44,997 nucleotides of DNA from a virus (Duplodnaviria; Heunggongvirae; Uroviricota; Caudoviricetes), in the IMG/VR virus record IMGVR_UViG_2917408641_000002, positions 1-44,997 of that record, one strand, 5' to 3'. Made by a program: the position numbers. The first letter of the stretch is position 1, and every line of letters begins with the position of its first letter. Below are positions 6,001 to 9,000 of the stretch, piece by piece.

Positions 6001-9000
6001 ACTGGCCTGTGATGCACTGCAAATGGCGTTGTGGCGGAGAAGACGCCCGGAAAGCGTCATTGTTCATACGGACCGTGGTGGTCAATACTGTTCAGGGGAT
6101 TATCAGGCGCTGCTGAAGCGACACAACCTGCGTGGCAGTATGAGTGCGAAAGGCAACTGTTATGACAATGCCTGTGTGGAAAGCTTCTTTCATTCGCTGA
6201 AGGTGGAATGTATCCACGGGGAACGCTTTAGCAGCCGGGAAATAATGCGGGCAACGGTGTTTAATTATATCGAGTGTGATTACAATCGCTGGCGTCGTCA
6301 CAGTGCCTGTGGCGGTCTCAGCCCGGAACAATTTGAAAACCATAATCTCGCTTAGGGCCGTGTCCACATTACGTGGGTAGGATCACTTCGCGAGATAAGG
6401 AGCAAACTTGTTGAGATGCGTCATGGTGTTGCTGCTCCTCACTTTTTGGTTGCTCCGGAGGAGTAACCTCGCCAGTTAACAGCCACATCGGATCACAGCC
6501 CAGAATATTAGCCAGTGGGATAAGCATACTGATAGTTGGTTCATAGTCTCCGCTCTCCCACTGGATGATGATATCTTCATCGAGATTGAGCAGCCTGGCC
6601 ACTTCGGCGGTTGTTAAGCCACAGGCTTCGCGTTGGGTGCGGAGGCGGTTGTTGATTACAGTATTTTTGCTCTGTAAAAGCATTGCTGACGATAGCTTTC
6701 TGGATATGCTATTTGTCATATCCCATGCCAGTCCTGCGCATGACTCGATATCGCCAGAGAGCGTAGCATCTGGCGTTGCTTTGGCTATTAGTGTAATGAG
6801 GCTGCCGAGGTTTTTCAGTTCTTCAAGACAGTCAAGAGTTGTAGCTTTATTGATCATGAGATGATACCTCAGTTACGAACTTTGTTTTATGGTAACTAAG
6901 GTATCAAGGTGTGGCAAGTGATTTTTGATACTTTGGTTTCTTTTTGTGTTTTGAGTCTGGTCAGAAAATATCCCACCTGGCATCAACCACAACACCTACT
7001 ATTTCGCAATCATTGTCCATTTCTATGATTGGATATTGTGGATTAAGGGGCTTTAGAAACGCCTTTCCCATTTCAGAAATATATTTTTTGAATGTTGCTT
7101 CATTGGTGGATTTTTTTCTGGCGATGACGTAACATCCTGAAAAAACTTCTTTATCTGGGTTGACAAGGATCGACATTCCTTCAGGAAATGTTATTCCTAC
7201 GGGCGAAGTCATTGAGTCTCCGTGCACTTCCAGCCAGAACCCCCTCTCACCAGCGTATTTTACAGAATGCCTCCAGTTATCCTGATCATACATGTTGTAG
7301 TCATCACCAGCAGTTGCGAATAATCCTGCCTGAACCCAGTTAATTACAGGGTAAGAGTGTGCTGTGTCTCTCTGTGGGCAGCTCTTAACATTATTTTCCC
7401 AATGCTTATCTTTTGCATCTCCGCTCTGAAGCCACTGCGGTGAACACTGCAGTGCAGCTGCGACTTTAAAAAGGGTGTCACCGTTGAAACTTTTTGTAAG
7501 GCCTTGCTCGGCTTTACTGATTGCAACTCTGGTGACCCCTGCTTTTTTAGCCAACGCATCTTGCGTTAACCCAGCTTTTTGTCGTGCGTTGATGAGGCGT
7601 TCACCTAAAGATTTCATTTTTCTTCTCCTTTCATGGCTGCTGATACTAAAGTAACAGAATCTCTTGATACTTTGGATTCTCGTGTTTAACATTCTTGGAT
7701 AACAGAGTATCTGGTGTGAGACTAAAGAATGACCCTTTATGAAATATTAAAAACTCAATTTAAAACCAATGCCGCTATTGGCCGCAGGTTCCCAAAGAAA
7801 GGAAAGCCTCGTGGCAGTCAAGGTGTTGGAAAGTGGAAAACGAGAGGTGTTCCAGAGGACGTAGCTATTCTCTGCCATCTGGATCCAAGTATCCCGTATA
7901 TCCATCCTGATTTAGCGCACACAGAAGAGGGGCAAGGTAAGCAATCGGAGGTGTGATATGTCACAGTGCTTAGCGATGCTTCAGAAACTTAATCAGCGTA
8001 TTAAGGCTGGGAAGAATTTCTGCGGGAGTTTTGATAACCGGAACAATCCGCCTGTCTTCATAGAGCTCACTAGCTTTCAGTGCGTTAAAAAAGTTATCTA
8101 CGGCTTGTTGGTAACTTCGTGCTTGTCTGCTGCTCAGGTGAGGGCGCAGTCTTCTGAAATCGTCTCTGGATATATGTGGCATATCCCGTTTTCCGTCTCG
8201 GCAACCCTCGCGGAAGGCGTCAAGGATCAGGAACAATTCATCAGCGACGGCATTGAACTCTTTCCGCTTATCTCGATTTTTGGCAAGCCAGTGTCCGAGC
8301 CAGGCGCCAAGTCCAAAAGCACTAACCGTCCAGATGAAGGTAACAAGGCGCGGGTTGGTATTGAACAGAAGAACAAACTCACTCCAGATGATTCCCATAA
8401 TTTCTGGCGACTCCTTTTTGTTCAGGTAGCGGCATTTCTTGTTGCATTTCCTGTTGGTGCTTATTTCAGCATGCGGGCAAATCTTCGCAATGACTGGCGT
8501 AAGCATATCCAGAAAGGAAGACGCCTGAAAGTACCCGTACTGGCTATGTTCTCCATCACAGGCATCAGCGATCGCATTAAACCTCGATCTTGGCAGATAT
8601 GGGAACGGAAGCATTGGTTTCAGGATATGCGGATATGCCATGGGATCGAGGCTGCTTATAGGGATGCATGGCTCTGGAAAAAGCGCGTAACTGAGAAGTG
8701 CTGAACCGTGATCCCAATAATTTATCCGTAAGGAGGTATCAGTGAACACCGCAATTTTTAACGATAAAGCATCCATGACCAGCGTTGAGATCGCAGAGTT
8801 GGTGGGCAGCCAACACAAAGATGTTAAGCGCAGCATTGAAAGGCTCATGGATAAGGGGATTATTCGAAGTGCGCCAATGGCGAATTTCGAAATAATCAAC
8901 AACTTAGGGTTAAAACGAAATGTAGGTGCTTACATCTTCGAAGGCGAACAAGGTAAGCGCGACAGCATCATTGTCGTCGCTCAGCTTTGCCCCGAATTCA

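What the first reader, a model, noticed from the sequence alone, without database searches (positions are those of the whole stretch)
7970..8398. Leftward membrane-protein gene embedded in the rightward early region, beside the cro-position ORF
A 143-aa ORF (TM helix plus charged C-terminal domain) with a good Shine-Dalgarno sequence is transcribed opposite to the surrounding early-right genes, convergent with the cro-position ORF, and separated from the Rha gene by a 340-bp gap. Opposite-strand inserts in an early operon are typical of morons such as exclusion or abortive-infection genes. The alternative plus-strand ORF over the same DNA looks like an antisense shadow.
Basis: partly seen in the sequence, partly recalled or inferred. 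Interest (0 to 1): 0.55.

Follow-up and report, generated by a model that had tools for sequence, protein, structure and literature searches.

The report
Two genes on opposite strands
The leftward membrane-protein gene is real, but it lies codon-for-codon inside a rightward reading frame that selection has also kept open in every relative examined, so this stretch of a Shiga-toxin phage very probably encodes protein on both strands, which is rarely this well supported in bacteria or phages.

Summary
The window is Stx2e phage phiP27. The leftward ORF 7970-8398 exists (142 aa, not 143). It is a genuine gene: it shows a minus-strand substitution pattern, a conserved ATG and AAGGAG, and 223 remote family representatives of similar length. 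It is a small TM-plus-helical protein with no known function.

In 30 distinct homologous genes (17 clusters at 80% nt identity) both frames are open. The minus genes use TTA, CTA and TCA, the codons that would put stops in the plus frame, 0 times against 82 TTG, 394 CTB and 103 TCB. Distant family members without a plus partner, and the non-overlapping tail of the same plus ORFs, use these codons freely.

The plus ORF starts 1 nt after the cro-position stop behind a GGAGG. It ends in a conserved TM helix plus basic Trp-rich tail with a plus-strand substitution pattern. No conserved internal start codon lies upstream of that helix.

Within the overlap only the minus protein's sequence is detectably constrained; the plus frame is merely kept stop-free. 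Expression and function are untested. The closest precedent is the olg1/gene 10 pair of Pseudomonas phage Fc02.

The parts
7970..8398 (-). Minus gene, 142 codons plus TAA. It encodes a small probable single-pass membrane protein (N-terminal WSEFVLLFNTNP, TM ~18-38, RD(K/R)RKEFNAVAD motif, helical C-terminal domain).
   Evidence: ORF and translation. Minus-strand substitution phase. dNN/dSN 0.25. Homologues of 137-149 aa (142 aa in most) in all loci, with in-frame stops about 10 codons upstream of the ATG in most. 223 remote family representatives. AF2 pLDDT 77.
8411..8416 (-). Shine-Dalgarno sequence AAGGAG of the minus gene, 12 nt before the ATG. On the plus strand it is read as Leu152-Leu153 (CTC CTT).
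   Evidence: Sequence. CTC CTT is present in 13 of the 14 aligned loci (L024 has CTA CTT) although Leu has six codons. AAGGAG/AAAGGAG is present in most of the 30 homologues.
7958..8704 (+). Plus ORF, 248 codons plus TGA, containing the whole minus gene in codon-opposed register.
   Evidence: ORF. Intact in every homologous locus. Zero TTA/CTA/TCA in 30 minus genes. Joint chance probability 1e-10 to 1e-26. Annotated by PGAP.
7947..7960 (+). Start region of the plus ORF: GGAGG (7947-7951), TGA stop of the cro-position ORF (7954-7956), 1 nt, ATG (7958-7960).
   Evidence: GGAGGYGTGAYATG-like junction in 11 of 14 loci, whatever gene lies upstream (different Cro families, ORF6N); the other 3 have an ATG within a few codons.
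8354..8416 (.). Junction (plus codons 133-153; minus residues 1-15, ATG and SD). Nearly invariant at all three codon positions. The coding signature switches strand here, and modules recombine here.
   Evidence: Sliding-window diversity 0.07-0.18 at every position. Codon alignment. Different phylogenies on either side, e.g. L026 vs L012: 3% vs ~50% difference.
8411..8467 (+). Transmembrane helix of the plus protein (residues 152-170, LLFVQVAAFLVAFPVGAYF; FPxGxYFSM conserved).
   Evidence: Kyte-Doolittle 2.09. Plus-strand substitution phase upstream of the only conserved internal ATG, M172. Retained in C-terminal types A and B.
8471..8701 (+). Conserved basic, Trp-rich C-terminal tail of the plus protein (residues 172-248; 19 K/R, 6 W).
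   Evidence: Plus position 3 > 1 > 2. dNN/dSN 0.18. In IMG/VR found only on contigs that also carry the minus gene.
7729..7956 (+). Cro-position ORF, first gene of the rightward operon, translationally coupled to the plus ORF.
   Evidence: phrog_4749. The equivalent genes in homologous loci are YdaS/P22_Cro family.
6961..7617 (-). CI-type repressor (HTH_3 + Peptidase_S24), on the same strand as the minus gene and downstream of it.
   Evidence: Pfam. Annotated extent.
8742..9449 (+). Rha/anti-repressor-like gene, next gene of the rightward operon.
   Evidence: Pfam Phage_pRha, phrog_63.

Best explanation
Window 7958-8704 is a two-strand coding module of temperate enterobacterial phages.

Shown:
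- The leftward ORF 7970-8398 is a real gene of a widespread, uncharacterised family of ~140-aa proteins (N-terminal TM helix plus helical domain).
- It lies entirely inside, and exactly codon-opposed to, a 248-codon rightward ORF.
- Both frames are open in all 30 distinct homologues.
- The overlap evolves under the minus protein's constraints. The plus ORF's last ~100 codons (TM helix plus basic Trp-rich tail) evolve under plus-strand constraints.

Strong inference: the plus ORF is translated from the ATG at 7958, coupled to the cro-position gene, right through the antisense of the minus gene. Three observations support this. The minus gene never uses the three codons that would stop the plus frame. 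No conserved internal start precedes the plus TM helix. The plus ORF is embedded in a translationally coupled operon. Its first ~147 residues appear to be a sequence-unconstrained, probably unstructured leader; only stop-freeness is selected there.

Weaker inference (mechanism): the two genes are expressed in alternation. In the lysogen CI shuts off PR, and the minus gene is read from the repressor strand as a lysogen-expressed membrane function, most likely exclusion or defence. After induction, PR transcription and translation of cro, the plus ORF and Rha run head-on through the minus gene and silence it, while producing the plus membrane protein.
For: Identity and annotation conflict.

Both ORFs intact in every locus.

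Codon counts over 30 distinct minus genes: TTA 0/TTG 82, CTA 0/CTB 394, TCA 0/TCB 103. Other A-ending codon families stand at 10-26%. The non-overlapping tail of the same plus ORFs has TTA 57/TTG 44, CTA 18/187, TCA 28/63. Distant unpaired family members have 2-9 such codons each, apart from two with none (L080, GC 0.52; L086, GC 0.63) (Fisher p 1e-7 to 1e-16). The joint probability of chance openness is 1e-10 (7 clusters) to 1e-26 (17 clusters). Only these two of the six frames are stop-free.

The substitution phase flips at the minus ATG. dNN/dSN is 0.25 for minus and 0.18 for the plus tail.

Plus start: SD + stop + ATG junction conserved across different upstream genes. In most loci the plus stop is coupled to the next gene's ATG. 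There is no conserved in-frame start between codon 7 and M172, whereas the TM helix (152-170) already shows the plus signature.

The minus family is real: 223 representatives at E<=1e-3; AF2 pLDDT 77 against 41 for the plus protein, whose residues 1-146 are all below 50.

Lysogen link: distant members lie directly downstream of, and co-directional with, S24-type or Arc/Mnt-type repressor genes.

Precedent for repressor-strand genes antisense to the gene after ner/cro, both with exclusion activity: PMC9936078.
Against: No expression data of any kind; translation of either frame is inferred from evolution only.

No amino-acid-level constraint on the plus frame inside the overlap could be shown. 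dNN/dNS is 0.71, but the control (plus tail against its non-coding antisense frame) gives 0.69. AF2 sees no structure there.

No convincing conserved sigma-70 promoter for the minus gene was found, and its SD spacing of 12 nt is long.

No homology to any known exclusion or defence protein, so the functional assignment rests on context alone.

The sequences are related and mosaic, so the independence assumed in the probabilities is approximate.
Confidence: 0.68

Rival explanations
1. Leader-only model. The plus frame across the minus gene is kept open only so that ribosomes coming from cro keep translating. This avoids a 430-nt untranslated stretch, Rho-dependent polarity on Rha and the replication genes, and loss of coupling. 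The N-terminal 147 residues have no function of their own. The functional plus product is just the TM helix plus basic tail, and the minus gene is an independent insert that was later bridged by ORF extension.
For: There is no amino-acid constraint and no predicted structure in plus residues 1-146. Coupling is tight at both ends of the plus ORF. The minus-gene module and the plus-tail module recombine independently. In L070 the plus ORF starts inside the minus gene, so full coverage is not obligatory.
Against: The frame is always continuous with the TM/tail domain, rather than ending and re-initiating. In the IMG/VR viral contigs searched, the type A tail domain was found only on contigs that also carry the minus gene. 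A signal-peptide-like segment at plus residues ~42-66 lies, by position in the module, opposite the true N-terminus of the L070 variant (BLASTP aligns only plus residues 95-172), which hints that part of the leader is used.
Confidence: 0.3
2. One reading: only the minus ORF is a gene (a moron). The plus ORF is a chance antisense shadow favoured by the codon-opposed frame.
For: The codon-opposed frame is the one in which shadows are commonest. The overlap carries a minus-strand signature only. The plus N-terminal half is not foldable.
Against: The per-lineage chance of an open plus frame is 0.01-0.06, yet it is open in all 30 sequences. Avoidance of TTA/CTA/TCA is specific. Unpaired relatives do not avoid these codons. 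The plus SD/ATG and the tail under plus-strand selection are conserved.
Confidence: 0.03
3. RefSeq/PGAP view: only the plus ORF is a gene and the minus ORF is its shadow.
For: The plus ORF is longer, has a strong SD, lies in operon orientation and is what PGAP annotates.
Against: Substitutions in the overlap peak at minus position 3. The minus protein is more conserved than the plus protein there (e.g. 78% against 62%). It has a fixed 142-aa length with stops just upstream of a conserved ATG/SD. It has a large remote family, including members with no antisense ORF. AF2 confidence is good.
Confidence: 0.02
4. The plus protein is made from an internal start next to the signal-peptide-like segment (about codon 35-43), and the first ~40 codons are untranslated.
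For: ATG or GTG at codons 35-43 in several lineages (L003, L025, L014, L015, L017 group). The L070 plus ORF begins exactly at such a segment.
Against: phiP27 and its four closest relatives have no ATG, GTG or TTG between codons 10 and 50. The stop-free stretch and the SD/ATG at the cro stop are conserved upstream of that point.
Confidence: 0.1

Closest known systems
olg1/olg2-gene 10 module of Pseudomonas phage Fc02 and other B3-like phages (Ramirez-Sanchez et al. 2023, PMC9936078)
   Same: The position in the lysis-lysogeny switch is the same. The gene that follows the cro/ner gene in the early lytic operon is overlapped antisense by coding sequence on the repressor strand, upstream of the repressor. 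There the repressor-strand genes are transcribed in the lysogen from a distal promoter and the lytic-strand gene after induction, and Gp10 fractionates with the pellet.
   Different: There is no detectable sequence relationship: tblastn of either phiP27 protein against 50,697 phage records finds only phiP27. Olg1 is a 7.9-kDa soluble protein, not a 142-aa TM protein. Here the minus gene is fully nested and codon-opposed. Expression and exclusion are demonstrated for Fc02 and untested here. Here the evidence is deep comparative conservation, which was not shown for Fc02.
Embedded antisense overlapping genes of E. coli O157:H7 and Pseudomonas aeruginosa (e.g. PMC9927249, PMC5960689, PMC8850804)
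   Same: A protein-coding ORF is embedded antisense in another ORF, and the claim is that both are maintained.
   Different: Those cases rest mainly on RNA-seq, Ribo-seq and phenotypes, usually for young, taxonomically restricted ORFs. Here the embedded gene is the older, better conserved one, with a large family. The enclosing frame is the one that is only kept stop-free. The pair is conserved across Escherichia, Klebsiella and Phytobacter contigs and many metagenomic lineages; the minus family alone extends to Morganella, Yersinia, Enterobacter and Pectobacterium.
Lysogen-expressed exclusion genes next to phage repressors (lambda rexAB, P22 sieA next to mnt, P22 sieB/esc); comparison from general knowledge
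   Same: These are small, often membrane-bound accessory proteins encoded on the repressor strand. Distant members of the minus family sit directly downstream of S24-type or Mnt/Arc-type repressors, the position of rexAB and of orf59a/sieA in P22.
   Different: No homology: hhalign against P22 SieA gives probability 0.5%, and there are no PADLOC hits. In phiP27 the gene is separated from cI by the divergent cro gene and lies inside the lytic operon. Function is untested.
Lambda PRE/OOP-type leftward transcription through cro/cII (from general knowledge)
   Same: Leftward transcription that starts to the right of cro and runs antisense to the PR operon towards cI.
   Different: Those transcripts carry no protein-coding gene antisense to the PR operon. 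No CII-type promoter was identified here.

Membership tests
Antisense (codon-opposed, 'sas13') overlapping protein-coding gene pair | Both ORFs intact across divergent homologues beyond chance | tested here: met
   30 distinct sequences (17 clusters at 80% nt identity) have 0 stops in both frames, against 4.6-13 stops per locus in the other four frames. Joint P is 1e-10 to 1e-26. Unpaired relatives carry 2-9 plus-frame stops.
Antisense (codon-opposed, 'sas13') overlapping protein-coding gene pair | Purifying selection on the amino-acid sequence of both products within the overlap | tested here: inconclusive
   Minus: dNN/dSN 0.25 (met). Plus: dNN/dNS 0.71, but the control gives 0.69, so there is no signal beyond position bias. 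The plus frame shows selection only against stops and, outside the overlap, on its C-terminal 100 codons (dNN/dSN 0.18).
Antisense (codon-opposed, 'sas13') overlapping protein-coding gene pair | Transcription and translation of both strands | not testable with these tools
   No RNA-seq or Ribo-seq was available. Both ORFs have a conserved SD and ATG.
Phage moron / superinfection-exclusion or abortive-infection gene | Homology to a known exclusion or defence protein | tested here: not met
   PADLOC: none. P22 SieA hhalign probability 0.5%. PHROG matches are of unknown function only. PDB and BFVD fold searches return only self.
Phage moron / superinfection-exclusion or abortive-infection gene | Own promoter and terminator flanking the gene | tested here: inconclusive
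   No minus-strand sigma-70 match at the tool's threshold in 7600-9000. Relaxed scans give no positionally conserved site. One weak terminator-like hairpin lies at 7823-7807.
Phage moron / superinfection-exclusion or abortive-infection gene | Expression from the prophage in the lysogen and an exclusion phenotype | not testable with these tools
   Context only: the gene is on the repressor strand, and distant members lie directly downstream of repressor genes.
Fc02-type olg/gene 10 module | Repressor-strand coding sequence antisense to the gene following cro/ner | tested here: met
   Gene order cI(-) / cro-position(+) / plus ORF(+) containing the minus gene(-) in phiP27 and the homologous loci.
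Fc02-type olg/gene 10 module | Sequence homology to Olg1 or Gp10 | tested here: not met
   tblastn of both proteins against the phage collection finds only phiP27. Fc02 itself was not fetched for a direct comparison.
Pfam DUF4752 | Score above the gathering threshold | tested here: not met
   15.5 bits against a cut-off of 27, E=0.018. Ten remote family members give no Pfam family.

The most novel reading that the evidence does not exclude
The pair is an obligate two-strand switch. One piece of DNA encodes a lysogen-specific membrane protein on the repressor strand and a lytic-cycle membrane protein on the PR strand. Head-on transcription makes their expression mutually exclusive. The two products are functionally linked, for example an exclusion or abortive-infection effector and the phage's own escape factor. 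That link would explain why the two frames have been kept together over deep divergence and across two or three alternative C-terminal domains.
Probability: 0.25. Interest if true: 0.85.

Novelty: new variant of a known kind. Interest (0 to 1): 0.7.

Why it matters
Long antisense overlapping genes in bacteria and phages are disputed because most candidates lack evolutionary support. Here both frames are maintained across at least 17 diverged lineages, and there is a built-in natural control: relatives without a partner ORF use the forbidden codons freely. That makes this one of the cleaner comparative cases.

It also shows a concrete annotation failure. GenBank and RefSeq each keep one strand and discard the other.

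It places the pair at the lysis-lysogeny switch of a Shiga-toxin phage, where strand-exclusive expression could be regulatory.

It offers a simple experimental handle: single synonymous changes that stop one frame and leave the other untouched.

Tried and rejected
- Pfam, NCBIfam, PADLOC and PHROG scans of both proteins gave no significant family.
- Foldseek of the minus model against PDB and BFVD returned only the phiP27 protein itself. The afdb50 library was unavailable.
- hhalign of the family profile against P22 SieA showed no relationship.
- Rfam found nothing relevant.
- Strict and relaxed promoter scans found no conserved minus-strand promoter. The apparent CATAAT hits 285-305 nt upstream are the complement of the next gene's start region.
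- The OLGenie-style dNN/dNS for selection on the plus frame was rejected as evidence, because the control region gives the same ratio.
- The search for homologous proteins with the plus C-terminal 109 aa alone returned nothing, apparently a limitation of the word index.
- The original phiP27 paper (PMC127862) is not held.
- The 223-aa L13 start of AJ298298 was rejected. Homologues have in-frame stops about 10 codons upstream of the conserved ATG.
- An internal plus start at M172 was rejected, because the TM helix upstream of it already carries the plus coding signature.
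Full report
**What the window is.** The region matches Stx2e phage phiP27 (AJ298298/NC_003356) at 99.7% identity (window coordinate = record coordinate + 866). It also matches five of 5,426 complete E. coli genomes at 99.8%. The two annotation traditions disagree.
- AJ298298 annotates the minus strand as L13, 223 aa (window 7970-8641).
- RefSeq/PGAP annotates the plus strand as a 242-aa hypothetical protein.

The local gene order is cI-type repressor (minus, HTH_3 + Peptidase_S24), cro-position ORF 7729-7956 (plus), the disputed stretch, then a Rha/anti-repressor-like gene 8742-9449 (plus).

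**The observation.** The minus ORF is there.
- It runs from ATG 8398-8396 to TAA 7972-7970 and encodes 142 residues, not 143.
- AAGGAG sits 12 nt upstream of the ATG.
- Residues ~18-36 are moderately hydrophobic and are followed by AKNRDKRKEF.

The plus ORF 7958-8704 (248 codons) contains the whole minus gene. The frames are exactly codon-opposed: plus position 1 faces minus position 3. The plus ATG follows the TGA of the cro-position ORF by one nucleotide and is preceded by GGAGG at a 6-nt spacing.

**Related sequences.** Protein searches found homologues of both products with matching lengths.
- Minus: 142-146 aa, down to 44% identity.
- Plus: 243-289 aa, down to 38% identity.

I fetched DNA for these proteins and for loci found by DNA-level scans that do not depend on gene calling. 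In every locus carrying a close relative of the minus gene, both frames are open. The set holds 30 distinct sequences, forming 17 clusters at 80% and 7 at 70% nucleotide identity. The loci first found through the minus protein (L014, L015, L017, L019) are unbiased with respect to the plus frame. The loci found through the plus protein are unbiased with respect to the minus frame.

**Which strand codes.** Pairwise differences by codon position give a clear answer.
- Across plus codons 6 to ~136, differences are highest at plus position 1 (= minus position 3) and lowest at position 2. This is a minus-strand coding signature.
- From about codon 137 to 248 they are highest at plus position 3. This is a plus-strand signature.
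- The switch falls at the minus start codon (plus codon 147).

A modified Nei-Gojobori count for the codon-opposed frame gives dNN/dSN = 0.25 for the minus gene and 0.18 for the plus tail.

So the minus gene is real, and the so-called gap is the coding 3' part of a plus gene. In most homologues an in-frame stop lies about 10 codons upstream of the conserved minus ATG, so the 223-aa L13 start is an over-extension.

**Is the plus frame over the minus gene a shadow?** No. A plus-frame stop corresponds to a minus-strand TTA, CTA or TCA codon.

| Sequence set | TTA / TTG | CTA / CT[TCG] | TCA / TC[TCG] |
|---|---|---|---|
| 30 paired minus genes | 0 / 82 | 0 / 394 | 0 / 103 |
| Non-overlapping tail of the same plus ORFs | 57 / 44 | 18 / 187 | 28 / 63 |
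| Distant unpaired minus-family members | 29 / 46 | 20 / 117 | 15 / 43 |

- Other A-ending codon families in the paired minus genes stand at 10-26%.
- Distant members of the minus family found in the same scan have 2-9 such codons each and no antisense ORF. The two exceptions, with none, are L080 (GC 0.52) and L086 (GC 0.63).
- Fisher tests give p from 1e-7 to 1e-16.
- With background phage codon usage, the chance that the plus frame is open is 0.01-0.06 per sequence. Taking the most favourable member of each cluster, the joint value is 1e-10 for 7 clusters and 1e-26 for 17.
- Of the six frames only these two are stop-free. The others carry 4.6-13 stops per locus.

**Further signs that the plus ORF is translated.**
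- The junction GGAGGYGTGAYATG (SD, stop of the upstream gene, one base, ATG) is conserved in 11 of 14 loci. The upstream gene varies (different Cro families, an ORF6N protein). The remaining loci have an ATG within a few codons.
- In most loci the plus stop overlaps the start region of the next gene (TGATTATG).
- The TM helix at residues 152-170 (Kyte-Doolittle 2.09, FPxGxYFSM) already shows the plus signature. No in-frame ATG, GTG or TTG is conserved between codon 7 and M172.
- The type A tail domain is found in IMG/VR only on contigs that also carry the minus gene.
- A second tail type (B...ISPRILAKRKRWMKLH...CQWLWF) occurs with other minus-gene variants, and the ORF is again continuous.

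**What is not shown.** Inside the overlap I could not detect selection on the plus amino-acid sequence. dNN/dNS is 0.71, but the same statistic on the plus tail against its non-coding antisense frame is 0.69. The ratio therefore reflects position bias, not selection. AlphaFold2 gives the minus protein pLDDT 77 from five sequences (a long helix through the TM segment plus a helical domain). It gives the plus protein pLDDT 41, with residues 1-146 all below 50. The plus N-terminal half thus behaves as a stop-free, sequence-free leader.

The junction (plus codons 133-153) is nearly invariant at all three positions. It contains the minus N-terminus, ATG and SD, and CTC CTT is present in 13 of the 14 aligned loci (L024 has CTA CTT). 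It is the only place where double constraint is visible. It is also where modules recombine: L026 and L012 differ by 3% in the tail but by about 50% in the overlap.

**The minus protein family.** A profile search of 1.84 billion representatives finds 223 proteins at E<=1e-3, nearly all 120-145 aa and matching end to end. They share the motif RD(R/K)RKEFNxVADP after the TM segment. Named members are 'hypothetical protein' from Morganella, Yersinia, Enterobacter and Pectobacterium. No family or fold match gives a function.

Context is suggestive. In distant members the gene lies immediately downstream of, and co-directional with, a repressor gene. This is S24 cI-like in L072 and Arc/Mnt-like in L078, L082 and L084. 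That is the position lambda gives to rexAB and P22 gives to orf59a/sieA (the comparison is from general knowledge). This favours a lysogen-expressed accessory function, but nothing more specific.

**How it most likely works.**

Shown: two conserved ORFs on opposite strands, with the constraints described above.

Inferred with good support: ribosomes initiate at 7958 coupled to the cro-position gene, read through the antisense of the minus gene, and produce a protein whose conserved parts are a TM helix and a basic Trp-rich tail.

Inferred more weakly:
- The minus gene is expressed when PR is repressed, and is silenced by head-on transcription when PR fires.
- The stop-free leader may serve mainly to keep translation continuous (coupling, protection from Rho).
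- Alternatively, part of the leader is used. In the divergent locus L070 the plus ORF starts inside the minus gene directly with MKNIKPVIASAAAILLSTIIVLPCSAQS, a signal-peptide-like sequence. By position in the module it corresponds roughly to phiP27 plus residues ~42-66 (KKVIYGLLVTSCLSAAQVRAQS), although BLASTP aligns only plus residues 95-172.

I found no conserved promoter for the minus gene, so its transcription start is unknown.

**Comparison with known systems.** The nearest described arrangement is in Pseudomonas phage Fc02. There gene 10, which follows ner, is overlapped antisense by olg1/olg2 on the repressor strand. These are transcribed in the lysogen from a distal promoter, and both Olg1 and Gp10 exclude superinfecting phages (PMC9936078). 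The architecture is the same, but there is no detectable sequence relationship.

Antisense embedded genes reported in E. coli O157:H7 and P. aeruginosa (PMC9927249, PMC8850804) are the same kind of object. They are usually young ORFs supported by expression data. Here the support is deep conservation, and the embedded gene is the older partner.

**Verdict.** I rate this a new variant of a known, rare kind, with interest about 0.7. The score is limited by the absence of expression and functional data, and by the lack of demonstrable amino-acid constraint on the plus frame within the overlap.

Noticed in passing
window 5204-6355: An IS3-family insertion sequence lies just left of the immunity region: orfA 5204-5503 (HTH_Tnp_1) and orfB 5630-6355 (rve integrase core). 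AJ298298 annotates this stretch as hypothetical L08/L09. The related GB089 prophage shows no transposase there.
   Followed up: partly
window 7970-8929 (minus frame): Only in phiP27 does the minus frame stay open for 319 codons, far upstream of the real start. This explains the over-long 223-aa L13 annotation. Homologues have stops about 10 codons upstream of the conserved ATG.
   Followed up: yes
L070 2779-3429: This is a third variant of the module. The plus ORF is only 196 aa and starts inside the minus gene with a clear signal-peptide-like N-terminus (MKNIKPVIASAAAILLSTIIVLPCSAQS). It ends in a type B tail. This suggests the plus product may be exported or type I.
   Followed up: partly
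window 8354-8416 and homologous loci: The junction between the minus N-terminus and the plus TM helix is almost invariant at the nucleotide level. It separates segments with different phylogenies: L026 vs L012 differ by 3% on one side and about 50% on the other. It looks like a recombination joint for module exchange.
   Followed up: partly
window 9553-10581: A 342-aa ORF combines an Ash-family domain and a second Rha domain. AJ298298 annotates this stretch differently (L15/L16), and GB089 carries ProQ/FinO and Rha genes here.
   Followed up: no
window 6369-6857 (-): A second HTH protein lies next to cI. It matches phrog_4739 and also the 'CII-like regulator' phrog_4836. It is a candidate activator for leftward transcription, but this was not examined.
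   Followed up: no
window 7729-7956: The cro-position ORF has no Pfam hit (phrog_4749 only). 181 other E. coli genomes share only this ORF at ~88% identity, without the two-strand module. The module is therefore exchangeable downstream of cro.
   Followed up: no
L078, L082, L084, L072: Distant members of the minus-protein family sit directly downstream of Arc/Mnt-type or S24-type repressor genes on the same strand, with no antisense ORF.
   Followed up: partly
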